Assembly: GCA_028824685.1 (NCBI GenBank)
Contig: JAPPCZ010000023.1
Location: 257 to 64,256 of the forward strand
Direction: 5' to 3'
Origin: Candidatus Poribacteria bacterium
GTDB taxonomy: Bacteria; Poribacteria; WGA-4E; WGA-3G
DNA length: 64,000 bases
A model generated the notes under the pieces. That model was not told where the DNA came from, ran no database searches, and saw only the letters and a program-made list of their open reading frames with translations. The position numbers were made by a program, and so were the translations under genes. Shown here piece by piece: positions 275 to 64,000 of the stretch (the first letter of the stretch is position 1; each line of letters opens with the position of its first letter).

Positions 275-1693
275 TTAACCATCCAGATGGAAGATAGCCA
301 TCTTCAACTCAGTCATCTCTTCAATAGCATATTTCGGACCCTCTTTGCCCATACCGCTCTCTTTAACACCGCCATAAGGCATCAAATCCGCACGCCACTG
401 CGTACCCCAGTTCACCATCAGATTACCTGAATCAACCTCACGGACAAACCGCATTGCCCAATCAATGTTCTGGGTGAAGATGGCGGCACTCAATCCGTAG
501 TTTGTATCGTTTGCGAGAGTGATCGCTTCGTCAATGTCGTTGACACGCGTCACACCGACAGCCGGTCCGAATACCTCATCACAAGAGATTTTCATCTCAG
601 GTTTTACGTTAGCAAGGATAGCAGGCGTGACAAACTGATCCTGTTTTTCACCGCCTGTGAGCAGTTCCGCACCGTCTGATACCGCTTCCTTAATCCATTC
701 GGTAACGCGGGTAGCATCTCCTTCGCGAATCATCGGTCCCATCCGCACACCAGATTCCAGCGGATTGCCGATACCGATTTGGGAAACTTCTGCTTGGAAT
801 GCATCCAAAAAATCACCATAGATTTTCTCGTGCGCGATGACGCGCTGCGTTGAGATACACACCTGTCCAGCATTAGAATAGCCGGACGCTGCCGCCGCAC
901 GTGCGACCTTCTCAGGATCCGCGTCGGGCATAACGATGAGTGGTGAATTCGAACCGAGTTCCATAGTAACCCGTTTCAATCCTGCAACCTTACAGATATG
1001 TTCACCAACATCACGACTACCAGTAAAGGTAATCTTTCGGACGCGACGATCTGCGCACAACGTATCACCGATTTCACCACCGGGCCCCGTCACACATTGA
1101 ATCGCTTCAGGAGGCGTGCCTGCTTCTAAAAAGAGTTCCACTAATTTCAACGCGGAAAGTGGTGTATCCGTTGCAGGTTTGATAATAATAGCATTTCCAC
1201 CAGCAATGGCAGGACCCGCTTTATGACAGACAAGATGCAACGGGAAGTTGAAAGGACTAATACCAGCGACAATGCCGCAAGGCACACGCACCGTAAAACC
1301 GAGTCTGTTTTTTACACCGGGCGCACCTTCAAGTGGAATCGTTTCGCCGGTCAACCGTTTCGCTTCTTCTGCGGAGAGCGCGATAATTTCGGAAGCACGG
1401 GTTGCTTCAACGGTCGCTTCGGCTAATATCTTCCCTTCTTCACGGGTGATAACTTCGGCAAGTTCTTCCGCTTTTTCGACCATCAAATCCGCGACTTTTC
1501 GCAAAATTTCATAACGTTCATAACCGGTCAACCCCGCCATGATTTTTGCGCCGCGTTCTGCGGTTTGAATAGCGGTTTCAACGTCGTTAGCGTCCCCTTT
1601 CGGCACGGTATCAACAACTGAACCGTCAAAAGGACTCAGGACATCTATTTTGTTAGATTTGTCAACCCATTCTCCACCAACATGCATTTGCAT
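275..1693 (-). CDS. NAD(P)-dependent aldehyde dehydrogenase family protein
   Basis: 484-aa ORF with ALDH hallmarks (GQVCISTQRV catalytic Cys region, ELGSNSP, glycine-rich NAD fold). The likely start is the ATG at 1693 (MQMHVGG), preceded by a GGAGA RBS, rather than the upstream tool start at 1729. Confidence 0.8.
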   Translation of the reverse strand: MQMHVGGEWVDKSNKIDVLSPFDGSVVDTVPKGDANDVETAIQTAERGAKIMAGLTGYERYEILRKVADLMVEKAEELAEVITREEGKILAEATVEATRASEIIALSAEEAKRLTGETIPLEGAPGVKNRLGFTVRVPCGIVAGISPFNFPLHLVCHKAGPAIAGGNAIIIKPATDTPLSALKLVELFLEAGTPPEAIQCVTGPGGEIGDTLCADRRVRKITFTGSRDVGEHICKVAGLKRVTMELGSNSPLIVMPDADPEKVARAAAASGYSNAGQVCISTQRVIAHEKIYGDFLDAFQAEVSQIGIGNPLESGVRMGPMIREGDATRVTEWIKEAVSDGAELLTGGEKQDQFVTPAILANVKPEMKISCDEVFGPAVGVTRVNDIDEAITLANDTNYGLSAAIFTQNIDWAMRFVREVDSGNLMVNWGTQWRADLMPYGGVKESGMGKEGPKYAIEEMTELKMAIFHLDG

Positions 1694-1742
1694 AGTGTGT
1701 TTTCTCCATTTCTGTTTCGGCACACGCATGTGCCTTTTTAAT

Positions 1743-2510
1743 TTACTTTTTGGACTTTAGCAAACCCCAAGTAGTGGTTGCTTTTCCTGCTGCCTCAACA
1801 GCAGCATAATCTGCTAAGCCAGTATCCATAACATCGTTGACTTGTACTTCCGTAAGTGCTTTCGTGAAAAAACCAACTTCATCAAAGAGTCCGGTTGCAG
1901 CAACGTTGCCAGGGCGCGCACCTATCCAAATCGGTGATTTACTGGTATCAAGTTTTCCACCACTCGCCTTTTCACCTTCTAATTTACCATCAACAAACAT
2001 CTGAACCTTACTGCCATCATAGACTTTCGCGATATGATGCCATTGACCATCTGCAACGATGGTTTTACCATCAATACGACCAACTTGACCCTTCACATGC
2101 CACATAAATACTGGATAATCGGCATCGTGAATCCATATATCAAGGTGACGGACATTTTCCGGTTCGGGCCAAACATCTCCATTCCGCCAAACGACGTATT
2201 GCCATGAGGCAGCATTCAACTTAACCCAAGAAACAAAGGTATACGGGTCGGAGTTGAAAACGTCATCATGGTCAACACGAACGTAACTATCACCTTTGCC
2301 GGGGAATTCCAACGCACCACCGAATTTGCCATCACCTACCCACTTTAGGTTGCCTTTGATGTCACCATCGTGTCCACTGACAATATCTTTAACTACTTTT
2401 CCACCGTTTTCATTGAATAACCATGCACTTGCTAAACCGAGTTGCGCCGCATGTGCAGTAAAAACTGTTCCGATGATAAGTATTGTCAAACACAAAATAG
2501 TCGTTTTCAT
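1743..2510 (-). CDS. secreted LamG/concanavalin A-like domain protein with C-terminal TTTWG-type tail
   Basis: N-terminal signal peptide (MKTTILCLTILIIGTVFTAHAA). LamG-like signature near the C-terminus (LFDEVGFF). The protein ends ...KATTTWGLLKSKK. Confidence 0.5.
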   Translation of the reverse strand: MKTTILCLTILIIGTVFTAHAAQLGLASAWLFNENGGKVVKDIVSGHDGDIKGNLKWVGDGKFGGALEFPGKGDSYVRVDHDDVFNSDPYTFVSWVKLNAASWQYVVWRNGDVWPEPENVRHLDIWIHDADYPVFMWHVKGQVGRIDGKTIVADGQWHHIAKVYDGSKVQMFVDGKLEGEKASGGKLDTSKSPIWIGARPGNVAATGLFDEVGFFTKALTEVQVNDVMDTGLADYAAVEAAGKATTTWGLLKSKK

Positions 2511-2543
2511 GTTGTTTCCTCCTTTGAGGTTACTAAAACGATT

Positions 2544-3548
2544 TTAGACGCGGCAATTGTCAAGCGCGTCCTCATCTAATTCAACGCCTAATCCTGGTTT
2601 ATCTGGTATAGTCGCATATCCGTCCACAAGCGGAATAGTTGAAGGTGTAACAATGTCAAAGGCACGCAGCGCATTTAAAGTAATTGAAGGCATAGTCGCA
2701 TTCCGCATAACCGCAGCAAGATGCATCACATAAGTGGTCGTTATGCCGAGACCAACAATTTGTATCCACACAGGAAGATGCGCTGAGTCTGAAATTATTG
2801 CTTCACGTTTAGCGTTAGCAGCACGCGAGTCTGGGTAAGCAATAATAAACGAATCGTTCATCTTTGCCCGAATCGCCTCAACAGGATCGGGATTTCCGAA
2901 GTGAATTGTTATTGGCATATCCGTGTGTTGCTTGATTTCTTGGTATCCGGCAATATCCGACTGTGGAATCGGGGTTTCAAACGATTCAATATTGTAGTCT
3001 TGAAGTTGTCGGGCAACTTCAAGGGTGTGTTCTGGTGTTTGAAAAGAATCATTTGCATCCACGCGAAGTTGAAAATCATCTGGCACAACCTCTGCGATTG
3101 CGTCTACCTGTTCACGCACTTCAAACCACGGACGTGCCTTGATTTTATGGAGTCGGTAGCCGAGTGAATATGCATGTTTTGCCTCTGCAGCCCACTCCTC
3201 TGGTGTCATATCAATAGACCAATATCCGAACGATGTTTTGTCGTTAACCTTTTCACCTAAAAGTTGATGTACTGGCACACCAAGGGACTTGCCCATGATG
3301 TCGTAAAAGGCTTGTTGTAGCGGTGTCGGTGCCCATCCATTCATAAATTCAAACGGGTTTCTGCCGATATACCGTTGAACTGCTTCCTCCGATTGAAACG
3401 AACCATCGCCAATGCCGGTTATTCCCGCATCAGTATGCACCTTGTAAACATGGTCAATTTGATAAAGATTACGACGCGTCATCAGTTCGTAAATGCCATC
3501 ATGGTAAGGCACTCTGACCTTGATAACTTCAATTTGCGTAATTTTCAT
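2544..3548 (-). CDS. enolase-superfamily enzyme (mandelate racemase/muconate lactonizing enzyme-like)
   Basis: N-terminal capping-domain pattern MKITQIEVIKV... followed by barrel motifs (KIKARPWFEV, LRVDANDSF metal-ligand motif). Length 334 aa. Confidence 0.6.
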   Translation of the reverse strand: MKITQIEVIKVRVPYHDGIYELMTRRNLYQIDHVYKVHTDAGITGIGDGSFQSEEAVQRYIGRNPFEFMNGWAPTPLQQAFYDIMGKSLGVPVHQLLGEKVNDKTSFGYWSIDMTPEEWAAEAKHAYSLGYRLHKIKARPWFEVREQVDAIAEVVPDDFQLRVDANDSFQTPEHTLEVARQLQDYNIESFETPIPQSDIAGYQEIKQHTDMPITIHFGNPDPVEAIRAKMNDSFIIAYPDSRAANAKREAIISDSAHLPVWIQIVGLGITTTYVMHLAAVMRNATMPSITLNALRAFDIVTPSTIPLVDGYATIPDKPGLGVELDEDALDNCRV

Positions 3549-50531: not shown

Positions 50532-51461
50532 TTATCGTTCAAAAAGTTTTGTTTGTCTATTGTTATCTGTATCACGAAATTTACCCACATTCTTGCCTTT
50601 TGATTTGCGTTCCTTAAAGGTCATCTCTACTTGATGCAACCCAAGTTCTTCTTGGATTTTAGACATCTCACTGTGAGCATTAGCTAATCTGTCGATCGTC
50701 ATTTTCATATATTCTTCGCTTCTGTCAATGCCAATGTATTTATGTCCTAAAAGTTTTGCAGCAACAGCAGTAGTACCGCTGCCAATATAGGGATCTAACA
50801 CAATGCCTTGTGTCTCTGTATCTAAAATTGATATAATTACGCGTGCTGGTAACCAGAGCGGAAATGGTGCTGGATGCGGATTATTTTTCCCATTTTCAGG
50901 AACACCGCGCCATATAGATGTCAACTTGGCATCGCAGGATCTCAATTCTTTGCCAATTAATTTGTTTCCTATAGGCTTATACAGCCAATAAATACGCTCT
51001 TCTACTTGCCAAAACCGCCAACCCCTTATGTTTCCTGCGATCATTCTGTCCCAAATGATTTCTTGTTTCACCGTCCATTCAGTTTTACGCAACCAGTCCA
51101 TCGGATGATACATGTTGCCTCTATCCCATCGAACTTTGTGATTATAAAAAAAAGAACCTCCTGGTGCAGTTATACGGTAAATCTCATTCAGTACATCTAC
51201 TTGGTGCTGCTGATATTCAGGTTCTGGGACAGCATCTTTGTAGACATCATAAACCACGTTTTTGACAAGCCAACCTTTATGCTTCTCTTGCTTGTTATAT
51301 GGCGGTGAAGTGACGCCAACATTGACGACATCATCATCTATTTTACCGAGAACGCTAAGGGTATCGCCTTCAATGAGTTTGCCTTCTCCAAGCATGTCTG
51401 CCGTAATCTGCTTATGCTCCAGTGAATTGTCTTTAATAAGATGCTGATCAGCGATATTCAT
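50532..51461 (-). CDS. DNA methyltransferase (N4-cytosine/N6-adenine class, SPPY motif IV)
   Basis: GVTSPPY (motif IV; the S-P-P-Y form is typical of N4-cytosine MTases). LDPYIGSGTTAVAAKLLGHKYIGID (motif I, AdoMet binding). Confidence 0.8.
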   Translation of the reverse strand: MNIADQHLIKDNSLEHKQITADMLGEGKLIEGDTLSVLGKIDDDVVNVGVTSPPYNKQEKHKGWLVKNVVYDVYKDAVPEPEYQQHQVDVLNEIYRITAPGGSFFYNHKVRWDRGNMYHPMDWLRKTEWTVKQEIIWDRMIAGNIRGWRFWQVEERIYWLYKPIGNKLIGKELRSCDAKLTSIWRGVPENGKNNPHPAPFPLWLPARVIISILDTETQGIVLDPYIGSGTTAVAAKLLGHKYIGIDRSEEYMKMTIDRLANAHSEMSKIQEELGLHQVEMTFKERKSKGKNVGKFRDTDNNRQTKLFER

Positions 51462-52452: not shown

Positions 52453-53181
52453 TCAGTTACTGCTTGGCACTTGTGCTATGATACGGTCAGCAAGTTTTGA
52501 AAAAGGCAAACTTTGGAGGTAAACGGTGCCTGTGCCTTGCAGGGTCGCCAAGAAAAGTCCTTCACCACCGAAAAACATCGACTTTAAACCTTTGACCATT
52601 TCAATGTCATAATCAACACCAGACGTAAAGGCAACAAGGCAACCTGTATCAATGCGGAACGTATCGTTGACGAGTTCTTTTTTTATAACTGACCCGCCAG
52701 CATGCACAAAAGCCATGCCGTCTCCGAGTAATCGCTGGAGGATAAAACCTTCACCACCGAAAAAACCTGCGCCCAATCTGCGTGAGAAGGCAATGTTGAG
52801 TTCGGTCCCTAAGGCGGCACATAGAAATGCGTCCTTTTGGCAGAGCAGTTCTCCGCCCATTTGAGAAAGATCAATAGGAATAATATGACCGGGATAAGGA
52901 GCAGCGAAAGCCACTCGCCTTTTGTTACTACCCGTATTGGTAAAGTGAGTCAAAAACAGTGATTCACCAGTAAGTGCACGCTTGCCAGCACTAAAGAGTT
53001 TTCCCATTAAACCCTCGTCACCACCGGATCCATCCCCCATTTTTGCTTTAAAGACAATGTCATCCTCCATCCAGTTCATTGCGCCCGCTTCCGCGATAAT
53101 TGTCTCGCCCATGTCAAGTTCTACCTCAACGACTTGCATATCGTTGCCGAATATTTCGTAATCTACTTCGTGGCTTTGCAT
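52453..53181 (-). CDS. AIM24/TIGR00266 family protein
   Basis: [38 protein letters not shown] matches the conserved TIGR00266/DUF124 N-terminus. 242 aa. Confidence 0.65.
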
Positions 53182-53319: not shown

Positions 53320-55230
53320 TCATTCTTCCCAAACTGGTCCAAACAGAAGAATTGTCCCATCCGTGGCACCAGTTGCAAGTATTTTTCCATCAGGACTAAA
53401 CGCAACAGTTCCAACATTACCTATATGCCCAGTAAGTGTTTTTATATGTTTCCCGGTAGCAACTTTCCATAGGTGAATCTCGCTATCCCAGCTTCCACTT
53501 GCAAGTATAGATCCGTCAGGCGTAAACGCCATGCTGATGAATTCAGTAGATCTAACATTACCACGTATATCTGCGAAAAGCGTAGTTTTGTGTTCACCAG
53601 TGGCTGTATCCCATAACCGCGCAGTTTCCTCACTTCCGCTTGCGAGTATTTTCCCATCTGGACTGAACGCTAAACTTGAAACGGTTTTCGTATGTCCGAT
53701 AAGTGTATTTATGTTCTCTCCTGTGATGACATTCCATATCCGCACTGTTTGATCATAACCGCCAGTTGCGAGTGTTTTTCCATTCGGGTTGAACGTCACA
53801 CAACCGATATTTCTCGTATGTCCTTCAAGAATAGTGATTATTTTTCCAGTCGTGACATTCCACAAACGAACTACATTTTCATTGTCACAGAAGCTGGCAA
53901 GTGTTCTATTGTCGGGACTGAACACTACCTCTCTAACTAAGTTTGTATGACCTTTAATCATTTTTTTCTGTCTGCCTGTGGTCGCATTCCACAAACGTAT
54001 TGTTCTGTCGCTGCTGCCGCTTGCTAAAGTGTTCCCATCCGGACTAAACGCCACACTGAGAACTATATCTGTATGCCCTTTGAGAGTCTTTTCATGTTTA
54101 CCTGTTGCGATATCCCAAAAATGAATCTCACCATCCCAATCTGAACTTGCGAGTGTCTTACCGTTCGGATGGATTGCAATACTGAGCACATTTTTTGTAT
54201 ACCCTGTAATTGTCGTTGCATCCCATAACCGAATTGTTCCATCTCGACTTACACTTGCGAGTGTGTTATTATCATGACTGAATGCAACACTTAAGATTAT
54301 CTCCGAATGTCCAGTAAGCGTGATGTTGTGTTTGCCTTTGGCAACATCCCACAAACGTATAGTGTTGTCAGAACTTCCACTCGCAAGCAGTTTACCGTCA
54401 GAAGTGAACGCAATACACATGACGTTGTCTGTATGTCCTTTGAGTGTTTTTTTACGCCTTCCTGTCTTAGCACTCCATAACCGTACTGTATTATCTTTGT
54501 AACCTCCACCACTCGCTATGATGCTACCATCCTGATTGAACGCAAGACCGTTGACGTGCCCCTTGTGTCCTTTCAAGATCGAAATGTTCTGACTTGTTGT
54601 AACATCCCATAGCCGTATTGTTTTATCGTCACTACCAGTCGCAAGAATTTTTCCATCTGGACTGAATGCTACATTCCTGACATAGTCGGTATGTCCATAT
54701 AATGTGTTGATATGTTGTCCTGTTGCAACGTCCCACAACCGCACTGTTTCATCACCTTTCTGAGGTAAACTGCTATGGAGACCATAAGTATATCCACATC
54801 CACTTGCAAGCATATTCCCGTCTGGACTGAATGCTACACTTAACACACTTCCTGTATGCTTGAGGATAGCAACCCGTTTTCTCGTGGAAACATCCCACAA
54901 ATATGCCGTTTTGTCCCAGCTACCACTTGCGATCAGGTTGCCATCAGGGCTGAATGCTACACATTGGACATGTGCGGTGTGTCCAGTGAGCAGAGAAACC
55001 TCTTCGTAGGTTCGCACATCATAAAGCCAAACGCCTATTGAGCCAGCAACCGCGAGCAGGTTGCCATCTGGAGAGAACGCTATCTCATGTGCTTCACCTT
55101 TTCCAAGCCGGGCAAGCGCACCTTCAGGGAGTGCAATTTGAGTGCTGGGTTCATATTCTGCAATACTGGTTGATGAGATGACACTTATGATTATCAGTAA
55201 CGTCAGAAAAGAAAAAAATATTGTTTTCAT
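53320..55230 (-). CDS. secreted WD40 repeat protein (LPEGALARLGKG N-terminal motif family)
   Basis: Signal peptide present, followed by ~14 WD40 blades (GHT..V..VAFSPDG..LASGS.D.TIRLWD). Confidence 0.7.
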   Translation of the reverse strand: MKTIFFSFLTLLIIISVISSTSIAEYEPSTQIALPEGALARLGKGEAHEIAFSPDGNLLAVAGSIGVWLYDVRTYEEVSLLTGHTAHVQCVAFSPDGNLIASGSWDKTAYLWDVSTRKRVAILKHTGSVLSVAFSPDGNMLASGCGYTYGLHSSLPQKGDETVRLWDVATGQHINTLYGHTDYVRNVAFSPDGKILATGSDDKTIRLWDVTTSQNISILKGHKGHVNGLAFNQDGSIIASGGGYKDNTVRLWSAKTGRRKKTLKGHTDNVMCIAFTSDGKLLASGSSDNTIRLWDVAKGKHNITLTGHSEIILSVAFSHDNNTLASVSRDGTIRLWDATTITGYTKNVLSIAIHPNGKTLASSDWDGEIHFWDIATGKHEKTLKGHTDIVLSVAFSPDGNTLASGSSDRTIRLWNATTGRQKKMIKGHTNLVREVVFSPDNRTLASFCDNENVVRLWNVTTGKIITILEGHTRNIGCVTFNPNGKTLATGGYDQTVRIWNVITGENINTLIGHTKTVSSLAFSPDGKILASGSEETARLWDTATGEHKTTLFADIRGNVRSTEFISMAFTPDGSILASGSWDSEIHLWKVATGKHIKTLTGHIGNVGTVAFSPDGKILATGATDGTILLFGPVWEE

Positions 55231-55245
55231 TGTAATTATCCTATG

Positions 55246-56844
55246 TCACTTTTTATTCTTTTTTCCTGCTTCCACAGAAATATTAGCCTGAAAAGCGTTG
55301 ACGTTTCCCTTTCCACTGAACCAAGTGCCTGTCGCACCCAATTGAAAAACTTTACCCTCGTCAAAAGGATATTGTATTTTTCCGCTCTGTCCGGACGGAA
55401 TATCCCATACAGAGGTAAGTGCTTCGGTAGGAATCCCTTTTGTAGGCAATTCGGTTTCACTATCAAACAGGTCAAACGATCCGCCAGATTTGGCACTCCC
55501 CATCCGAATATCAATCATAAGCGTGCCACCATCTTCAAACGCAGTAGTATCTATTATAATAACGTTGTAGTCTTGGTCGCCGTATCTTGGCGCGCGAAGA
55601 ATGTGTAAAACCTCTTGCTCAGGATGTTTTTCATTCAGGACAACGTTTGAACCAGTCAAAAGAGAATCTGATGTATTTTCACCAAATCCAGGGAACTTTG
55701 CATCTAAGGAATCGTTCAGGAATGCAAGGTAACCATCCTCTTCCGTGATACCCCTTCGTGTGCAGTCACCAAAGAAATCATTAAGAGGAAGTTTTCCCAT
55801 CACATCTAATTCCGGGGAGATTACCATGCAATCCACAGGCGAATCTTCTTTCCATCCTTTCATAATCGCTTGTGCTAAGGGATGTGTTCTATTAAACGTT
55901 TTGGATTTACGCTTAGGTCTTTTCACCATGTAGGCTTTCTTTCGAGGGGTCCGTTCTAACTCAACGTTAGAAACCCATGTGTTAATAAAGTTTTCGTTCA
56001 GAAATTCGATAATTCGATCCCAATAGAGGACAACTGCCCTCAAACCTTTGCCGCTTCCTCAGCAAGATTCATCATGTAATGGCCCGTCTATAGAGATAAC
56101 ATGAATTAACTTCATCTGTTCCTCAGCCAACTCCACTGCTTTCTCCGGTGGCACCCAATTTATCTGCGCTATTTCGTAGAAACGAAGTATCAGTGCCTGT
56201 TCCGCTTCTTTCTGTGTTATAGCTTCCGTGAAGTCAGCATTCTGCATTTCGTTTTCTATTCCTGAGCGGAGTTCTATTTGGGGACATAGACCTGCATCTG
56301 TGCTTCTATAAGGTTGATCTTTGTACTTTTTCCAAGTGATATCGAGGTTAACTGTGCCTTCAGGGACGTACATTTTGAAGAAAGTTACTTTATTTTTTCC
56401 CCTGTCAATTATCAGATTTCCTTTGAACTGTGAAGGTGTTAACGTACCATCTGCAAAGTTAAATGCTGCGTGAATCCGAAAGGTGATGTCTGCAAATTTA
56501 TCGTTATATGCGCGGAGACATCCCCACAACCCGCGTGGATCATCAGTATCAATGTCTATTTTTATTAATTTCGGATTTGGATGCAGTTGCCGAAGCAATT
56601 CCGTAACACCGGCTTCTTCAATCTGCCAGCACTCACCTACTGAAACCGGTTCCGGTGGAAGAAAAGACTGGAATACTGATGTTGGATAATCCTTTTCTGG
56701 TTCGGCAACACGCAAGTTGGCCAACGCATCCCACTCTATATGAAAATGGGAAAGCGTATGCTCAATCGGTGCAATGAAACCTTTAACAGATACTATTTCA
56801 TCGTTCTTAAGATTGAGTGTAATCTTGTTTGGTGAGGTTTTCAA
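55246..56844 (-). CDS. cassette 1 of novel two-domain family: A domain (ORF 56059..56844) joined in frame through TGA (56059-56061) to B domain (ORF 55246..56043); candidate selenoprotein with ...DESC-U-GSGKG... junction
   Basis: The A ORF ends HDESC followed by TGA. Five codons later (GSGKG) the B ORF continues in the same frame. The only B 'start' is a TTG. A hairpin lies 18-36 nt downstream of the TGA. Confidence 0.4.
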
Positions 56845-58437
56845 TTATTTATTCTCCTCTACAGAAATTTTTGCGTGAAAAGCGTTTATGCCGCCTACTC
56901 CGCCCCATTGGTCTCCAGTTGCACACAATTTGAAACGTTGACCACGATTAAACTGATAGGCAATTCGCCCAGCTTGATTGGGGAATATACCCCAGAGCTT
57001 GGTAAGTGCATCAAGTGCCTTCTCATATTCATCACTTTCTTGACTGTGCCACTCTGTGGGATCAATTCCTTCTCGCACTTTCTCAGTTGGCAATTTTTTA
57101 TCTCCATCCAGTAAAAAAAATAATCCGATTGCATCATCTCTACCGACTTGGATATCAATAGTAAGTGTACCACCATCTGAAAATGCAGTGGTGTTGATAC
57201 CGACAACTGTGTAATCCTGATGTGCCATTTTCGGAGTGTGAATAGTGTCTAATACCTCTTGCGAAGGTTGTTCAGGTGTAAGGATGATGTCTCCCAAGCC
57301 AGGGCGTTTCCCTTCCAAGGAATCCTTGAGAAATTGCATGTATGCTACAGGTTCATCCTCAGGTCGTTGCAGGTTGTCAAGGAATTCATTGAAGTCAACA
57401 CTTCCCATCAAATCAAAATCGTGTGAGATAACGAAACAGTCTACTGGTGAACCTTTTACCCATCCTTTCATTATAGTTTTTGCTAAGGCGTGGTTTGTAT
57501 TGAAGGTTATTCCTTCCTGCTCACGTCTTCTTGCAATAGGGTCTTGCAAGCTGCCTGTCCGTCCTAATTCTGCGTTTTCCACCCAAGTGTTGATGAAATT
57601 TTCGTTCAGGAATTCAATAATTGCGTTTTTAGAGAGAACACCTGTCCTCAAGATTCTGCCGGTGCCTCAGCACGACTCGTCAAAAAGCGGTCCATCTAAT
57701 GAGACAACATGTATCGGTTTCTGTTGAACAGGAGCCAGTTCAAACGCTTCCACAAGCGATACCCAGTTGATTTTGTGGAACATGTAATAATGTGATATTA
57801 GTGTGCGTTCTGCTTGTTCCTGTGTGATTGATGTTTTGTATTCCACATCAGTAGGATATAAGCCCGCGCAGAGCTGAATCTGTGGGCAATAACCGATCTC
57901 CGCAAAATAGTTCCCATCTTCTTGTTTCCAACCGGCATCAAAGTTCAGTGTTGTTGGTGGAACGAACATTTTGAAAGACACAATTTTCTGCTGAATTCGG
58001 TCTATCACTAAATGCCCTGCAAACTGTGATGGCGTGAATTTGCCCTTCTCCATGATAAATTCTGCGTGAACGCGGAACGCGATTTCAGCGAGTGTATCAT
58101 TGTGAGCACGTAGACATGCCCATATTCCCGTGTATTCCTCATCATCATTTTGCAGTCTCAGTTTTGGATTGGGATAAAGTTGCTTCAGCAACGTTAGCAC
58201 ATTTTCTTCTTTAATCTGCCAGCATTCACCCACCGCAACCGATTCCGATGGGAGAAATGCTTGAAAAACAGATGCAGAATACTGCTTTGCCGGTTCAGCA
58301 ACCCGAAAGTTCGCTAATTCGTCCCACTCCACGTGGAAGTTATATTGCGTGTATTCAATCGGCGCGATGAAGGCTTTGACAGACACTTCTGCATTGCCAT
58401 CAAGGTTAAGTGTGATTTTGTTTCCTAAGGTTTTCAT
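56845..58437 (-). CDS. cassette 2: A domain (57667..58437) joined in frame through TGA (57667-57669) to B domain (56845..57651)
   Basis: The mRNA junction reads ...FDESC UGA GTGRI L(TTG) RTGVLS... The hairpin gaggaca-gg-uguucuc (plus strand 57634-57649) follows the TGA. Confidence 0.4.
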
Positions 58438-58438
58438 T

Positions 58439-59971
58439 TCAATTTTCCTCTATAGAGAGCGTCGCTTGAAAAGCGTTGATGCTTCCCTTTTCGTTAGATC
58501 CCCATCCCATGCCAACCAGTTTATAGATTTGTCCATGTTCAAAACGATGTGTCATCTGACCAATTTCGCATGGATCATACCAGCCTACGTCGTATGCACT
58601 ATCAAACATGGTAGCATCTGGTCGTTTGTTAACTGCATCAAAGGAAAGTTTATGTTCTGCATTAAGCAGAAAGAATGAACCATACGCTTTATCGTTTCCC
58701 AATTCCATATCAATAGTGAATGTTCCACCGTTTTCAAACGCAGTCGTATCAATCACGACAACGGTGTAATCCTGATGCCCATATTCTGGCGTGCGAAAAA
58801 CATCTAATACTGTTTGTGAAGGCTGATCAGGGGTAAGAACAATATTTCCTAATCCAGGAAGTTTTCCTGCTAAGGAATCTTTGAGAAACAACAGGTAATT
58901 TTCACTTTCCAAAGTTCCGTCCTCACGTCTGTTGTCTCCCAGATAATCATTGACTGAGACATGTCCTATAGTCTCAAGTTCTGGAGTAATTATCCATGTA
59001 TCTACTGGACCTCTTCGCCATTTATTACTGATGATTGTATGTGCTAAAGGTGGTATTTGCTCTACCTCTATGGTTTCATGCAAGCGTTTCAACTCAACAC
59101 TACGTATCCATGTGTTAATATAATTATCATTTAGTAAATTTATAATTCGTTCGTCGGAGAGGACACCTGCCCTCATGTTTTTCCCGCTTCCTCAGCACGC
59201 TTCATCGTCAAGAGGACCAGCAATTGAAATAGCATGGATCGGTTTCTGCTCTGCTTGTGCTATTTCATAAGCTTCTTCAAAAGGTAACCATTCAATTCGC
59301 TGTGATTTGTAGAATTTCTGTATAAGTATATGTTCCGCTTTTTCCCGTGTAATGCACGCTGTGTACTCTGTATCTTTCAGGACATCTCGCGTCCCACCGT
59401 AGAGTTCAATTTTCGGGCAAACACCACCACCTGTACTATAACCGGATTCATCTTTATGTTTTTTCCAGTTGACATCAAACCAATTTTTATCAGGAACGTG
59501 CTGTTGAAAATAAACAACATCTTCATTAATTCGGTCAATAATGAGATCCCCCGCAAAGTGAGAAGGAGTAAACCAACCGTCTTTTAGTGCAAATTCTGCG
59601 TGGATACGAAACACGATATGAGCATGTTGATCATTATATGCAAGTAAGCATGCCCACAATCCAGAGGAATCTCCAATATCAATATGCATATCCAGATTGG
59701 GATTAGGATTTAGTTGTCGTAGTAGCTCCAATGCACCAGTTTCTTCAACCTGCCAACATTCTCCAACAGCAACAGGATTATTAGGGAGAAAGGCATGGAA
59801 AACTGATGAGAAATACTCCTTTTCTGGTTCGTGAATACGCAAATTCGCCAAGGCATCCCACTCTTCGTGGAAGTTAGGACTCATGTCCTCAATCGGCGCG
59901 ATGACACCTTTGACATTCACTTTTTCATTACTAATCAGATTAAGTGTGATTTTGTTTCCTACGGTTTTCAT
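58439..59971 (-). CDS. cassette 3: A domain (59192..59971) joined in frame through TGA (59192-59194) to B domain (58439..59176)
   Basis: The mRNA junction reads ...DDEAC UGA GSGKN M RAGVLS... This is the only copy with an ATG at the B-domain position. Confidence 0.4.
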
Positions 59972-59972
59972 T

Positions 59973-61535
59973 TTAGTTCTCCTCTACAGAAATTTTTGCC
60001 TTAAAAGCATTGGTGCTGCCTTTCTCACTCCTACCGTAACACCCGGTAGCACCCAACTTAAAAAACTGACCTCGGTCAAAACGATGCGTGAGTTGCCCTG
60101 TCTCATCGGGTTCCAACCACTTCATCGCAAGTACCATGTGTTTAGTCACTCTTTCTGTTGTAGGGAGGTCGTCGTCACCATCAACCAAATAGAAGTGACC
60201 TTCCGCATCGGCTCTACCGGTTTCAATATCAATAGTTAGCGTGCCACCATTTTCAAACACCCTTGTGTCAATTACAACGACTGTGTAATCCTTATAACCA
60301 ACCGTCGGTGTTCGGAAAACATCCATGACCTCCTGAGAAGACATCTCACTGTTGAAAATAATATTACCCAACCCGGGCTGCTTCCCTTCCAAGCACTCCT
60401 TGAGAAACATAAGGTAACTCTCCTCGTCTCGGAGTTTAAATTTATTCCAATTGTAGTCGAAGAATTCATTGACAAGCAGCCTGCCCATCAATTCAAACTC
60501 TGGTGATATGACGAAACAATCCACAGGCGAACCTTTTTTCGATCCGGTCTTCCACCCCTTTATGATTGCTTGTGCCAATGGATGGCTTGTGTCAAATGTC
60601 TTGCCTTCACGTTCGCGTCTTTTGGCAATCGGTTCTCGCAAACTCTGGATACGCCCTAATTCGGCATCTGCTATCCAAGTGTTGATAAAGTTTTCGTTCA
60701 GGAATTCAATGTTTTGGTCGTCAGAGAGCGCACCTGCTCTCAGGCTTTTGCCACTCCCTCAGCACGACTCGTCCGCAAGCGGTCCACCTGATGAAATGGC
60801 GTGAATTGGTTTTTGTAATGCGGATGCCAATTCCAACGCTTCCTCCAGCGGGACCCAGTTAATTTGCGCTGACTTGTAAAAACATAACATTAATGTGTGC
60901 AATGCTTCCTCTTGGGTTATTGCTTCCGTGAATTTGGCATCTTGCAAAACATCTTGTTCACCTGCACAGAGTTCCATTTGCGGACAAAAACCGATGTCCG
61001 CTCCGCAGAGTCCATCTCTAATTTTCCAACGTGCATCAAAGTTCAGTGTGGCATCCGGAACGTGCATCTTGAAGGAGGCAACTTTCTTTTCGTGCTGGTC
61101 GATAACCAAATGTCCAGCAAACTGCGATGGCGCAAACCAACCTCTTTCTAAAACGAATTCCGCATGGACACGGAACAGGATCTCAGCAAACGCATCATTG
61201 TAGGCGCGTAGACATGCCCACAAACCGAAAGAATCCGCTCCAGCAACGTCCAACTCCAATTGCGGGTTTGGATTGAGTTGTCGCAGCAGCGTTAATGCGC
61301 CTTCTTCTTGAATTTGCCAGCATTCACCCACAGAAACCGATTCCGATGGCAGAAATGCTTGAAAAATGGAGGTAGGATATTGCTTCTCTGGCTCAGCAGC
61401 CCGAAAGTTCGCTAATTCGTCCCAGTCCACGTGGTAGTTGCGTTGGGTGTATTCAATCGGTGCGATGAACCCTTTGACTGAGACTTCTGCATCACTGTCA
61501 AGATTAAGCGTGATTTTATCTGATAAAGTCCTCAT
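59973..61535 (-). CDS. cassette 4: A domain (60759..61535) joined in frame through TGA (60759-60761) to B domain (reading frame open from 60758 through the tool ORF 59973..60641)
   Basis: The mRNA junction reads ...ADESC UGA GSGKS L(CTG) RAGALSDDQNIEFLNENFINTW... There is no ATG, GTG or TTG at the expected B N-terminus, only CTG. The tool ORF therefore starts 39 codons later at an internal TTG. Confidence 0.4.
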
Positions 61536-61536
61536 T

Positions 61537-63543
61537 TTAATGCTCCTCTACAGAAATTTTTGCGTGAAAGGCATTTATACGTCCCTTCTCACCGTACCAG
61601 TCGCCTGTGGCTCCAAACTTAAAGACTTTGCCTCCTGCGAAACGATGTCTAATTTTTCCTGCTTTACCGGGTCTAATTCCGGACACAGAGCTGATCGCTT
61701 CAGTCGGATAACCTTCTGTTGGCGGTTCGGTATCGTCCCTAAAGAGGTCAAACGAACCTGAAGTGTCACCACTCCCAACATGGATATCAATAATTAACGT
61801 CCCACTGTTTTCAAAAGCTGTTGTATCAATATTGACAACCGTGTAATCCTGATAACCGGGGCCGGGTGCCCGAAAAGCGGCTAATATCTCCTGTGAGGGA
61901 TGTGCCTTGTCCAGTACGACATCTGGCGTGTCCTCATTCGATTCAAGACGTTTTTCTTCCAAAGGTTCCGTTTGATTCTCCACTACAGTAATTTTTGCGC
62001 GAAAAGCGTTGATACATGGTTCGTTTCTCGCCCAATGTCCGGTGGCACCCAACTTAAAAAATTGACCTTGATCAAAACGATGTATGATTTGACGGGTGTC
62101 ACCGGGTTCTCCCCATGTCCAAGTAAGCATGCCTTTTGGAATCTCTTCTGTTGTGGAGAGTTCGTTATCGCCATCAAACAGATAGAACCCTACTTCCCCC
62201 TCTTCCCTACCGATTTCAAGATCAATGATGAGTGTGCCTCCGTTTTCAAACGCGGTGGCATCAATCACAACTACGGTATAATCCTGATGATTTCCAGCCG
62301 TTGGTGTCCGGAAAAGATCCAACACAAACTGCGATGGCTGCTCAGCAGTAAGAACAATGTTCCCCAATCCAGGTGCTTTCCCTTCCAAGGCTTCCTCAAG
62401 AAATGCAAGATAGTACTCTTGTCTCCAGAGGCCGCTACGTTTACTGTCTTTGCTGAGGTCGTTGACCAATAGTCTACCCATCAGTTCAAATTCGGAGGAT
62501 ATAACCAAACAATCTACCGGTGAGCCTTTTTTGGATCCGGTTTTCCCACCTTTAATAATAGCTTGTGCTAAGGAGTGCGATGTGTCAAAGTGCTTACCTT
62601 CGCGTTCGCGTCTTTTGGCAATCGGTTCCCGTAAGCTATGAATACGTCCTAATTCACAGTTGGGTACCCATGTGTTGATGAAATGTTCGTTCAAAAATTC
62701 AATAATTGTGTCTCTTGAGAGGACACCTGCCCTCAGGCTTTTGCCACTCCCTCAGCAGGATTCGTCCAAGAGCGGCCCATCTATTGAGATCGCATGGATC
62801 GGTTTCTGTTGTATCGGTGCTATCTCCAACGCTTCTTCAAGCGATATCCAGTTAATGTGCTGCGATTTGTAGAAGCAAAGCGTCAACTGGTGCTCCACCT
62901 CTTCTTGCGTAATGGATTCAACGAATTCAGTGTCTCGCACGATGTCTTCTATCCCGGCGCGGAGTTCCATTTGCGGGCAGAAACCGCTATCCGTAATATG
63001 CCCTTCCTCGTCTGGATCCTTCTGCCACCAAGTGTCAAAATTTATGATGCCGTTAGGAACGTACATCTGAAAGAAGGCAACCGATTTTTTAATTCTATCA
63101 ATAACAAGATGTCCCGTAAACTGGGAAGGCGTGAACCAACCGTCCTTTAGATCAAATTGCGCGTGGATACGGAACACAATGTCAGCGAATTCAGCGTCGT
63201 AGCCGCGGAGGCATGCCCACAGGCCTTGAGATTCGTTTTTATGGGTCAGATCCCAACGCATACCCAGAGATGGATTCGGATGAAGCTGCTTCAGCAATTC
63301 CAGAGCACCGGCGTGCTCAATCTCCCAAGGTGTACCCACGGAGACAGCTTCCTTCGGAAGAAAATCGCAGAAAATTGAAACGGGATACTGTTTTTCTGGT
63401 TCAGCAACCCGAAAGTTCGCCAATGTATCCCAGTCCACGTGAAAGTTGCTTCCGGAATACGCAATCGGTGCGATGCAGCCTGTGACAGACACTTCTGCAT
63501 CACTGTCAAGATTAAGCGTGATTTTATCTGATAAAATACTCAT
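61537..63543 (-). CDS. cassette 5: A domain (62752..63543) joined in frame through TGA (62752-62754) to a B domain carrying an extra partial B-domain duplication (reading frame open from 62751 through the tool ORF 61537..62694)
   Basis: The mRNA junction reads ...LDESC UGA GSGKS L(CTG) RAGVLSRDTIIEFLNEHFINTW... The B portion (385 aa) contains a second, N-truncated B-like module (...TAFENSGTLIIDIHVG...NAFHAKISVEEH). Confidence 0.4.
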
Positions 63544-63721
63544 TTTAATTCTCCTCTACAGAAATTTTATTCGCTTATACACATTTTCGGATGCAGTTTT
63601 GCGAATTATTGTGGAGAAATAAAATGAGTTCTAAAGATAGACACTGATTGATCGGACATAACTACATAAAAACAGGGTATCCAATAACGCTGAAGTAGTT
63701 TGAAACGGGCAGACTTTGTGT

Positions 63722-64000
63722 CTATAAGCGATTTTGGTTTTCATACGCAGCAATGTCCGTTTCATACTGCAAAGTCCAACCAATTTCATCAAGACCATTT
63801 AGCAAACAATACTTTTCAAAATCACCAATTTCATAGGTGTGTGCAGTGCCATCAGGACAGATAACCGCTTGCTCTTCTAAATCTACCATCAGTCGATATC
63901 CTTCGGTGTCGTGTGCTTCTTGACTAAGCGATGCGATAACGTCGGCAGGTAAGGCGATAGGTAGGATACCGTTCTTATAACAATTGTTACGAAAGATGTC
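63722..64000 (-). CDS. leuD: 3-isopropylmalate dehydratase small subunit, C-terminal part (5' end lies beyond the window)
   Basis: The minus-strand translation ...GYRLMVDLEEQAVICPDGTAHTYEIGDFEKYCLLNGLDEIGWTLQYETDIAAYENQNRL* matches the LeuD C-terminus (NGLD.IGLTLQ...I..YE). Confidence 0.6.
   Translation of the reverse strand, partial: DIFRNNCYKNGILPIALPADVIASLSQEAHDTEGYRLMVDLEEQAVICPDGTAHTYEIGDFEKYCLLNGLDEIGWTLQYETDIAAYENQNRL

What the first reader, a model, noticed from the sequence alone, without database searches (positions are those of the whole stretch)
55246..63543. Five tandem A–B cassettes joined in frame through a conserved TGA with a Cys-TGA-Gly junction: candidate novel selenoprotein family (C-U-G redox motif) mis-called as ten ORFs
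**Architecture.** Ten back-to-back minus-strand ORFs alternate between two paralogous families. Family A is ~260 aa and always ends GPL.DE(S/A)C. Family B is ~250 aa and begins (L/M)R(A/T)G(V/A)LS...F(L/I)NEN(F/Y)INTWV.

**In-frame junction.** In all five pairs the A stop is TGA. The B reading frame is the same frame, and it follows a conserved linker: ESC-TGA-G(S/T)G(K/R)x-(L/M)-RAG. The intervening sequence is 12 nt in pairs 1-3 and is open without stops in pairs 4 and 5.

**No consistent B start codon.** At the position equivalent to the B 'initiator', the codon is TTG, TTG, ATG, CTG and CTG in the five copies. Two copies therefore have no plausible start codon. This argues that B is not independently initiated and that A-TGA-B is a single ~520-aa polypeptide made by recoding.

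**Selenocysteine hypothesis.** Cys immediately followed by UGA then Gly (S-C-U-G) mirrors the C-terminal GCUG Cys-Sec redox motif of thioredoxin reductases. Sec is often paired with a neighbouring Cys.

**Context.** The copies are diverged (roughly 60-75% aa identity), so this is an old, maintained array directly downstream of leuD and not a recent assembly artefact.
Basis: partly seen in the sequence, partly recalled or inferred. Interest (0 to 1): 0.9.

Follow-up and report, generated by a model that had tools for sequence, protein, structure and literature searches.

The report
Tandem bacterial selenoprotein N genes
The ten "genes" are really five tandem genes of a sponge-symbiont bacterium (Candidatus Poribacteria), each very probably read through a UGA as selenocysteine. 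The proteins are not a new family: they are bacterial relatives of the animal muscle-disease protein selenoprotein N, with the same S-C-U-G-S-G active-site motif.

Summary
There are five minus-strand cassettes (55246-63543). Each is one reading frame interrupted by a single TGA in the motif DE(S/A)C-TGA-G(S/T)G(K/R).

In 76 related Poribacteria loci the junction codon is TGA in 185 of 185 cases. The terminal stops of the same genes are TAA 82, TGA 77 and TAG 24.

A 6-bp hairpin with loop A-G-(G/U)-U lies 23 nt after the UGA in every copy. It meets every criterion of the published bacterial SECIS (selenocysteine insertion sequence) model, shows compensatory pair changes, and freezes synonymous sites.

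An AlphaFold model of an unsplit homologue puts the UGA position at the CxxC site of a thioredoxin-like domain, which the A/B split would cut in two.

Unsplit homologues carry Cys (CC-GSGK, no hairpin), Gly or Trp at this position. Animal selenoprotein N aligns across the junction (E = 5e-32) and is known to carry Sec in SCUG.

Published COG tables list SelA, SelB and SelD in Poribacteria WGA-3G, a genome that also carries these cassettes.

So the selenoprotein reading is strongly supported and the "novel family" reading is not. These are SelN-like proteins. The bacterial, SECIS-in-ORF, tandemly amplified branch appears in none of the Pfam, NCBIfam or review lists I could check.

The parts
61537..63543 (-). 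Cassette 5, first in the operon: a SelN-like selenoprotein gene of 668 codons. It has an N-terminal SelN-type beta domain, a thioredoxin-like domain and two C-terminal beta-sandwich domains.
   Evidence: One frame with a single internal TGA. SD GAGGAG precedes the ATG. Homology to SelN.
62752..62754 (-). Sec-UGA of cassette 5 (..LLDESC-U-GSGKSLRAG..).
62719..62734 (-). bSECIS-type hairpin of cassette 5: GAGGGC-AGGU-GUCCUC, with the loop 23 nt after the UGA.
59973..61535 (-). Cassette 4: SelN-like selenoprotein gene, 520 codons.
   Evidence: The A part against wombat SelN gives E = 9e-25, and the alignment ends at ..ADESC / ..DDQSC.
60759..60761 (-). Sec-UGA of cassette 4.
60724..60741 (-). Hairpin of cassette 4 in a shifted register: GAGAGC-AGGUGC-GCUCUC.
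58439..59971 (-). Cassette 3: SelN-like selenoprotein gene, 510 codons.
59192..59194 (-). Sec-UGA of cassette 3.
59159..59174 (-). Hairpin of cassette 3: GAGGGC-AGGU-GUCCUC.
56845..58437 (-). Cassette 2: SelN-like selenoprotein gene, 530 codons.
57667..57669 (-). Sec-UGA of cassette 2.
57634..57649 (-). Hairpin of cassette 2: GAGGAC-AGGU-GUUCUC. Relative to the other copies it carries a compensatory G.U-to-A-U change.
55246..56844 (-). Cassette 1, last in the operon: SelN-like selenoprotein gene, 532 codons, TTG start.
56059..56061 (-). Sec-UGA of cassette 1.
56026..56041 (-). Hairpin of cassette 1: GAGGGC-AGUU-GUCCUC.
63544..63726 (-). Intergenic region between leuD and cassette 5, the presumed promoter region. 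Its last 20 nt repeat the 3' end of a B part and supply the SD.
   Evidence: The promoter scan was uninformative.

Best explanation
The region is an operon of five paralogous genes, not ten. Each encodes a 510-668-aa cytoplasmic selenoprotein of the selenoprotein N (SelN) type.

Proposed mechanism (inferred):
1. Translation starts at the A-part ATG/TTG behind a GAGGAG Shine-Dalgarno sequence.
2. At codon ~259 the ribosome meets UGA.
3. A 6-bp hairpin whose A-G-(G/U)-U loop begins 23 nt downstream acts as a bacterial SECIS element. It recruits SelB-GTP-Sec-tRNASec, and selenocysteine is inserted.
4. Translation then continues through the 'B' part.

The Cys-Sec pair (D-E-S/A-C-U-G-S/T-G-K/R) lies at the N-cap of helix alpha1 of a thioredoxin-like domain, the place where thioredoxin-fold enzymes carry CxxC. 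That domain is assembled from the last strand of 'A' and the first ~110 residues of 'B'. The pair most likely cycles between selenol/thiol and selenenylsulfide, making the protein a thiol-selenol oxidoreductase, as is proposed for animal SelN. The N-terminal beta domain is shared with SelN. The C-terminal beta-sandwich domain is specific to the Poribacteria branch and doubled in copy 5. Both presumably bind the substrate, which is unknown.

Shown here: the anatomy, conservation of the UGA and the hairpin, RNA-level selection, the fold, homology to SelN, and Cys homologues.

Inferred: actual Sec insertion, the redox chemistry and the substrate.
For: 1. UGA conservation. The junction codon is TGA in 5/5 window copies and 185/185 junctions (177 distinct sequences) in 76 Poribacteria loci. 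The terminal stop of the same cassettes is TAA 82, TGA 77, TAG 24. The Cys at -1 is present in 185/185.

2. No usable start for B. The +6 codon is CTG 93, TTG 78, ATG 3 and never GTG. It is CTG in two window copies.

3. Hairpin criteria. All four criteria of the bSECIS model quoted in PMC13188914 are met in 177/177 sequences: a 4-nt loop (6 nt in the shifted register), a 6-bp stem, G at loop position 2, a 23-nt spacing, and mean MFE -8.8 kcal/mol (the published cut-off of -7.5 kcal/mol is met by 99% over the first 50 nt and by 89% for the hairpin segment alone).

4. RNA-level selection. A stem of at least 6 bp occurs in 98% of real sequences against 28% of synonymous-codon randomisations. Arg+7 is always AGR (background 35%). 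Ala+8 is GCA in 157/157 (background 38%). Gly+9 is GGT in 129/130. Leu+11 is CTC in 170/177. There are compensatory changes at two stem pairs: G-C/A-U/G-U, and G-U/G-C/A-U/U-A.

6. Sec/Cys pairs. Distant unsplit homologues read DESC-C-GSGK with TGY codons, no hairpin, and CGU for the Arg.

7. SelN homology. Wombat and Nematostella SelN align across the junction: E = 5e-32 to P0003 and E = 9e-25 to window A4, ending exactly at ..SC, with B starting at SG(K/R)xLR. SelN carries Sec in SCUG (PMC12839072).

8. Same signal elsewhere. The same UGA plus hairpin occur in other architectures and G+C backgrounds (L083, L084).

9. Sec machinery. SelA, SelB and SelD COGs are listed for Ca. Poribacteria WGA-3G (PMC5649159 Table S4), and that genome holds cassettes L011 and L058. 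Sec-type hydrogenases are reported in Poribacteria (PMC13582414).

10. Ordinary code. TGA is a normal stop in the other genes of the window.
Against: - There is no direct evidence of selenium incorporation.
- selA/B/C/D could not be looked for in the genome this window comes from. There is no tRNA-Sec in the window or in the 1.5 Mb of related loci.
- The closest unsplit paralogues inside Poribacteria have Gly (GGA/GGT) or Trp (TGG) at the position, not Cys. Some still keep the hairpin, so the hairpin alone does not prove a working SECIS.
- The GGG codon after the UGA forms an SD-like GGGAG 10 nt before the +6 codon. That could in principle support re-initiation.
- There is no Rfam hit, although Rfam has no general bacterial SECIS model.
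Confidence: 0.85

Rival explanations
1. True split genes. Translation ends at the TGA, and the B part is made separately by re-initiation at the +6 codon (TTG/CTG/ATG), using the SD-like GGGAG just after the stop. The A and B fragments then assemble non-covalently into a split thioredoxin-like domain.
For: GGGAG lies 10 nt before the +6 codon, and GGG is strongly preferred after the TGA (138/162). The +6 codon is always NUG. Gene callers and public annotation treat A and B as separate proteins.
Against: - CTG, a very poor bacterial start, is the +6 codon in 93 of 177 sequences. GTG never occurs and ATG occurs only 3 times.
- The final G of that codon is the first base of the hairpin stem, which already explains the NUG pattern.
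- A real stop would drift among TAA, TAG and TGA, as the terminal stops do.
- The split would separate strand beta1 from the active-site helix.
- Cys, Gly, Trp and animal homologues are single chains.
Confidence: 0.05
2. Recoding, but not to selenocysteine. The UGA is read as Cys by a SelB/SECIS-dependent tRNA-ReC-like tRNA, or as Trp, Gly, Arg or Cys by near-cognate readthrough that the hairpin stimulates.
For: Poribacterial paralogues have Gly (GGA/GGT) or Trp (TGG) at this codon, each one base away from TGA. tRNA-ReC-type UGA-to-Cys recoding with SECIS elements is discussed in PMC13582414.
Against: - The hairpin fits the SelB-type bSECIS model in every respect.
- The eukaryotic homologue has Sec at exactly this residue.
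- Sec machinery is reported in Poribacteria.
- If Gly, Trp or Cys were wanted, a sense codon would serve. Yet 185/185 diverged copies keep TGA while synonymous sites around them are saturated.
Confidence: 0.07
3. Pseudogenes or sequencing or assembly error: the TGAs are inactivating mutations or artefacts.
For: None beyond the presence of an internal stop.
Against: The same codon is at the same place in 185 junctions from 76 independent assemblies, including long-read complete chromosomes. dN/dS is 0.08-0.34 on both sides of the TGA.
Confidence: 0.01

Closest known systems
Selenoprotein N (SELENON / SEPN1 / SelN) of animals
   Same: - Sequence homology runs over the N-terminal beta domain and the thioredoxin-like domain (28% identity over 341 aa, E = 5e-32).
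- The active-site context is the same: (D/E)(E/Q)SC-U-GSG(K/R)xLR...LLNExFI(N/S)TW.
- Sec is at the same residue, and a Cys directly precedes it.
   Different: - No transmembrane anchor and no EF-hand.
- Cytoplasmic: the window copies have no signal peptide.
- An extra C-terminal beta-sandwich domain, present once or twice.
- The SECIS is a small hairpin inside the ORF, 23 nt after the UGA, instead of a kink-turn element in the 3' UTR.
- Five tandem paralogues instead of a single gene.
Bacterial thioredoxin-fold selenoproteins (UxxC/CxxU Trx-, DsbA-, Prx-like families listed in PMC13188914)
   Same: In-ORF UGA. A bSECIS hairpin that fits the consensus model. Sec at the redox site at the N-terminus of helix alpha1. 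Cys-containing homologues exist.
   Different: - The motif is C-U-G-S, with adjacent Cys-Sec, not UxxC or CxxU.
- The protein is large and has three domains.
- It matches none of the Pfam or NCBIfam models used for the listed families.
Thioredoxin reductase C-terminal GCUG redox centre
   Same: Adjacent Cys-Sec followed by Gly. This is expected to form an eight-membered selenenylsulfide ring.
   Different: In TrxR the motif sits on a flexible C-terminal tail of a flavoenzyme. Here it is internal, at a thioredoxin-fold active site, and there is no flavin domain.
DsbD-gamma / DsbH / Thioredoxin_7 / AGR / UAS-type thioredoxin-like domains
   Different: No sequence-level family hit. Those domains carry CxxC or no redox motif, and none carries Sec.

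Membership tests
Bacterial selenoprotein gene (SelB/SECIS-dependent UGA recoding) | In-frame UGA conserved among orthologues and paralogues, with coding sequence under selection on both sides | tested here: met
   TGA in 185/185 junctions, against a mixed set of terminal stops. dN/dS is 0.08-0.34 on both sides.
Bacterial selenoprotein gene (SelB/SECIS-dependent UGA recoding) | bSECIS hairpin: 3-9 nt loop, 4-16 bp stem, G in the first two loop positions, 16-37 nt from the UGA, MFE <= -7.5 kcal/mol | tested here: met
   The structural criteria (loop, stem, loop G, spacing) hold in 177/177 sequences; the energy criterion holds in 99% over the first 50 nt and in 89% for the hairpin segment alone. 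Model criteria are quoted from PMC13188914. The hairpin is far commoner than in synonymous-codon controls.
Bacterial selenoprotein gene (SelB/SECIS-dependent UGA recoding) | Homologues with Cys aligned to the UGA | tested here: met
   P0128, P0133, P0141 and P0147 read DESC-C-GSGK, and P0180 reads DEAC-C-ATGK. Codons are TGT/TGC. Closer paralogues have Gly or Trp.
Bacterial selenoprotein gene (SelB/SECIS-dependent UGA recoding) | selA, selB, selC and selD present in the same genome | tested here: inconclusive
   They are not in the 64-kb window. A published COG table gives SelA = 2, SelB = 1, SelD = 1 for Ca. Poribacteria WGA-3G, a genome that carries cassettes L011 and L058. tRNA-Sec was not seen.
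Bacterial selenoprotein gene (SelB/SECIS-dependent UGA recoding) | Selenium demonstrably incorporated (75Se labelling or mass spectrometry) | not testable with these tools
   The organism is uncultured and no proteomic data are available here.
Selenoprotein N (SELENON) family | Significant full-domain sequence similarity to animal SelN | tested here: met
   E = 5e-32 (P0003) and 9e-25 (window A4) against Vombatus SelN. Animal SelN proteins are retrieved by the family profile.
Selenoprotein N (SELENON) family | Sec in an SCUG motif within a thioredoxin-like domain | tested here: met
Selenoprotein N (SELENON) family | N-terminal transmembrane anchor and luminal EF-hand (ER calcium sensor architecture) | tested here: not met
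   Window copies start MKTLxxKITLNL with no hydrophobic segment and no EF-hand. They are therefore homologues of the SelN core, not orthologues of the ER sensor.
Selenoprotein N (SELENON) family | Eukaryotic-type SECIS in the 3' UTR | tested here: not met
   No Rfam SECIS hit. The recoding signal is an in-ORF bacterial-type hairpin.
Thioredoxin-fold thiol-disulfide oxidoreductases | beta-alpha-beta-alpha-beta-beta-alpha fold with the redox motif at the N-terminus of helix alpha1 | tested here: met
Thioredoxin-fold thiol-disulfide oxidoreductases | CxxC (or UxxC/CxxU) dithiol motif | tested here: not met
   The motif is C-U-G-S/T: an adjacent Cys-Sec, with Ser or Thr at the second-Cys position.
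Genome-wide UGA reassignment (genetic codes 4 and 25) | UGA not used as a terminator, and found in-frame throughout ordinary genes | tested here: not met
   TGA ends 10 of 33 non-array ORFs in the window. Only the five junctions show in-frame TGA with long open frames on both sides.

The most novel reading that the evidence does not exclude
The SelN core (beta domain plus a thioredoxin-like domain with a Cys-Sec centre) is an old and diverse bacterial family in which Sec sits at the same residue as in animals. It would follow that the animal disease gene SELENON descends from this bacterial family, or was exchanged with it, while the recoding signal switched from an in-ORF bSECIS to a 3'-UTR SECIS.

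In bacteria the domain is repeatedly attached to, or placed next to, ECF sigma factors. It is also amplified into arrays of up to seven Sec-containing copies in sponge symbionts. That would make it a redox-sensing or redox-repair module, and a tractable bacterial model for the still unsolved structure and substrate of SelN.
Probability: 0.4. Interest if true: 0.75.

Novelty: new variant of a known kind. Interest (0 to 1): 0.62.

Why it matters
- SelN is a human disease protein (SEPN1-related myopathy). A 2020 paper I read states that SEPN1 then had no solved 3D structure, my PDB sequence search found no solved homologue, and its catalytic chemistry is poorly defined. A large bacterial branch with the identical SCUGSG site would give soluble, EF-hand-free, membrane-free models for structure and enzymology. 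It would also bear on where an 'animal' selenoprotein came from.
- The family is absent from the curated models (Pfam, NCBIfam) and from the 2026 review list of prokaryotic selenoprotein families. Every member seen here is split into two 'hypothetical proteins' in public annotation. This affects hundreds of genes in Poribacteria genomes alone.
- Five to seven Sec-containing paralogues in a row is an unusually heavy investment in selenium for one locus in a sponge symbiont.

Tried and rejected
- Rfam at gathering and at permissive thresholds: nothing relevant.
- Pfam, NCBIfam and PADLOC on the A, B, fused and unsplit proteins: no family.
- PDB sequence search: nothing. Foldseek against PDB matched only the generic C-terminal beta-sandwich.
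- tRNA-Sec was sought with ARAGORN in the window and in all fetched loci: none in that 1.5 Mb sample.
- The promoter and terminator scan gave counts no better than shuffles.
- Literature searches for a described bacterial SelN homologue found none.
- I have an unverified recollection that a poribacterial SelN homologue was used in SEPN1 biochemistry. I could not confirm it in the 2020 PNAS paper or its supplement.
- Genome-wide UGA reassignment was rejected because TGA is an ordinary stop here.
- 'Hairpin present only with TGA' does not hold as a clean rule. Gly-form paralogues in Poribacteria keep a relic of it, whereas distant Cys forms do not.

Full report
**Observation.** The region 55246-63543 holds five back-to-back minus-strand cassettes. 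Each is a single reading frame with exactly one internal stop, always TGA. The context is ..GPLxDE(S/A)C-TGA-G(S/T)G(K/R)x(L/M)R(A/T)G(V/A)LS...FLNENFINTW... The codon that ORF finders take as the start of 'B' is TTG, TTG, ATG, CTG, CTG. Each 'A' has a GAGGAG or GAGGAA Shine-Dalgarno sequence 7-8 nt before its start, embedded in the ..VEEN-stop end of the preceding cassette. Cassettes are 0-1 nt apart. The partial ORF upstream is the C-terminus of LeuD. A WD40-repeat gene follows 15 nt after the array.

Synonymous sites are saturated, and dN/dS is 0.08-0.34 on both sides of the TGA. In the whole window only six in-frame TGAs have at least 100 open codons on both sides. Five are these junctions. 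The sixth is the real end of the array and has no hairpin. TGA ends 10 of 33 other ORFs, so the genetic code is standard.

**Comparative evidence for recoding.** A scan of species-representative genomes returned 76 loci, 69 with record titles naming Poribacteria and seven titled only 'uncultured bacterium'. In these plus the window I located 185 junctions (177 distinct sequences). They usually lie in tandem at ~1.5-1.6 kb spacing, with up to seven per 22-kb locus. The junction codon is TGA in 185/185, and the preceding D-E-x-C is invariant. The terminal stops of the same cassettes are TAA 82, TGA 77, TAG 24. A true terminator would drift in the same way.

The supposed B start is CTG in 93 of the 177 distinct sequences, TTG in 78, ATG in 3, and never GTG.

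**The RNA element.** A 6-bp hairpin follows every UGA, with its loop starting 23 nt downstream. The consensus is GAGGGC-AGGU-GUCCUC. Copy 2 has GAGGAC/GUUCUC, and copy 4 uses a shifted register.

The published bacterial SECIS model requires a 3-9 nt loop, a 4-16 bp stem, G in the first two loop positions, 16-37 nt from the UGA, and MFE <= -7.5 kcal/mol (PMC13188914). The structural criteria are met in 177/177 sequences. Mean hairpin energy is -8.8 kcal/mol, and the -7.5 kcal/mol cut-off is met by 99% over the first 50 nt and by 89% for the hairpin segment alone. The loop A-G-(G/U)-U fits the usual N-G-[G/U]-N pattern.

The structure is selected at the RNA level:
- After synonymous-codon randomisation only 28% of sequences keep a stem of at least 6 bp, against 98% of real ones.
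- Codon choice inside the element is frozen. Arg is always AGR. Ala is GCA in 157/157. Gly is GGT in 129/130. Val is GTT in 38/38. Leu is CTC in 170/177. Background use of these codons is 20-38%.
- Two stem pairs show compensatory changes.

The same UGA-plus-hairpin arrangement recurs in distant members with other architectures and base composition (L083, L084).

**One protein, and where the UGA falls.** Unsplit homologues of 526-606 aa align from end to end with A+B. An AlphaFold2 model of one of them (P0003, pLDDT 75.5) has three domains:
- An N-terminal beta domain.
- A thioredoxin-like domain, residues ~280-412.
- A C-terminal beta-sandwich.

**What the family is.** A profile search of 1.84 billion representatives gave 758 hits. 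Most end exactly at the Cys or start just after the junction, so the split is family-wide.

The hits that span the junction were the informative ones:
- Several bacterial proteins read DESC-C-GSGK. These are classical Cys counterparts, encoded by TGT/TGC, with no hairpin and with CGU for the Arg.
- Two are animal proteins, from Vombatus and Nematostella, with an EF-hand and ..WGALDDQSC..SGRTLRE..LLNEKFISTW. This is selenoprotein N.

BLASTP of wombat SelN gives E = 5e-32 against P0003 over 341 residues. Against window A copy 4 it gives E = 9e-25, ending exactly at ..SC, and the B part begins at the matching SG(K/R)xLR. SelN is known to carry its Sec in an SCUG motif of a thioredoxin-like domain (PMC12839072). 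The window proteins have the same S-C-U-G-S-G-(K/R). So the family is not new. It is the bacterial counterpart of the SelN core.

**Sec machinery.** None is in the window or the fetched flanks. Two published sources bear on it:
- Slaby et al. list SelA (2), SelB (1) and SelD (1) COGs in Ca. Poribacteria WGA-3G (PMC5649159 Table S4). That genome contributes two cassette loci here (L011, L058).
- Sec-type [NiFeSe] hydrogenases have been reported from Poribacteria (PMC13582414).

**Complications.**
- The nearest unsplit paralogues inside Poribacteria carry Gly (GGT/GGA), Trp (TGG) or Thr, not Cys. They have a signal peptide, are single-copy, and follow an ECF-sigma-like gene.
- One of them (L079) keeps the hairpin almost intact. 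I read it as a relic of a Sec ancestor, as has been discussed for Cys-type hydrogenases. It does mean the hairpin alone is not proof of function.
- The codon after the UGA is GGG far more often than expected. It gives an SD-like GGGAG that can also pair with the 3' arm of the hairpin. I cannot explain this.

**Mechanism and rivals.**
- Best explanation (0.85): five SelN-like selenoprotein genes are decoded by SelB at a bSECIS. They make cytoplasmic oxidoreductases with a Cys-Sec selenenylsulfide centre at a thioredoxin-fold active site. When selenium is short, termination at the UGA would release only the A fragment.
- Termination plus re-initiation (0.05): weak because of the CTG 'starts', the invariant TGA, and the cut through the fold.
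- Readthrough to another amino acid (0.07): cannot be excluded without proteomics. It is disfavoured by the SelB-type element and by the Sec in the animal homologue.
- Pseudogenes or sequencing errors (0.01): excluded by the comparative data.

**Novelty.** The SelN family and its SCUG site are known. I could not find the following described: the bacterial Sec-containing branch, its in-ORF SECIS, its C-terminal beta-sandwich domain(s), its tandem amplification in Poribacteria, and its links to ECF sigma factors. It has no Pfam or NCBIfam model. It does not appear in the 2026 review's list of prokaryotic selenoprotein families or in the other selenoproteome papers I could read. Targeted searches for bacterial SelN homologues also found nothing. 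The literature I can search is limited, so prior notice elsewhere is possible. I rate it a new variant of a known kind.

Noticed in passing
L077 8636-9952; L079 250-1581; L080 4796-5824; P0133; L083 696-2426: SelN-like domains are repeatedly tied to ECF sigma factors. The Gly- and Cys-form genes follow an ECF-sigma-like gene. P0133 (Cys) and P0211/L083 (Sec, with TGA plus hairpin) are direct ECF-sigma::SelN-like fusions. This suggests a sensor or anti-sigma-like role for the secreted forms.
   Followed up: partly
L084 4001-5950: An LRR::SelN-like selenoprotein in a 54% G+C organism. It reads 'WGALDNQSC-UGA-PSGTDLRAG', very close to animal SelN. Its hairpin GAGAGCA-GGUC-UGCUCUC lies 24 nt after the UGA, and it has no C-terminal beta-sandwich.
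   Followed up: partly
L079 (junction of gene 1626-3293): The Gly-form paralogue (TGC GGA GGG...) keeps the SECIS-like hairpin GAGGGC-AGUU-GCUCUC although no UGA is left. It is either a relic of a Sec ancestor or a sign that the hairpin has another role.
   Followed up: partly
window 61537-62694 (-): The B part of cassette 5 carries the C-terminal beta-sandwich domain twice (385 aa). About 31 of 183 B parts in related loci are equally long. P0076 is a B part fused in frame to the next A part.
   Followed up: partly
window 63544-63563 (-): The 20 nt before the first cassette's ATG (..GTAGAGGAGAATTAAA) repeat the 3' coding end of a B part. It is a duplication scar that also serves as the Shine-Dalgarno sequence.
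   Followed up: no
window, first codon after each UGA (e.g. 62749-62751): The Gly after the UGA is encoded by GGG in 138/162 Gly cases (background 17%). The resulting GGGAG is SD-like and can pair with the CUCUC of the hairpin's 3' arm in an alternative fold. Unexplained.
   Followed up: partly
window 53320-55230 (-): A 636-aa WD40-repeat protein with an N-terminal hydrophobic segment starts 15 nt after the array and is probably co-transcribed with it. WD40 repeats are strongly over-represented in Poribacteria (COG2319 counts of 50-120 in PMC5649159 Table S4).
   Followed up: no
P0016 (NCBI protein from Ca. Poribacteria): A B-part ORF of this family is named 'BrnA antitoxin family protein' in NCBI. 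No toxin-antitoxin or defence model matches the three family proteins I scanned (P0003 and the window's copy-5 A and B parts), so this looks like a mis-annotation.
   Followed up: no
window 50532-51461 (-) and 52453-53181 (-): A DNA methylase (N6_N4_Mtase) and an AIM24-family protein lie downstream of the WD40 gene. There is no obvious link to the array.
   Followed up: no
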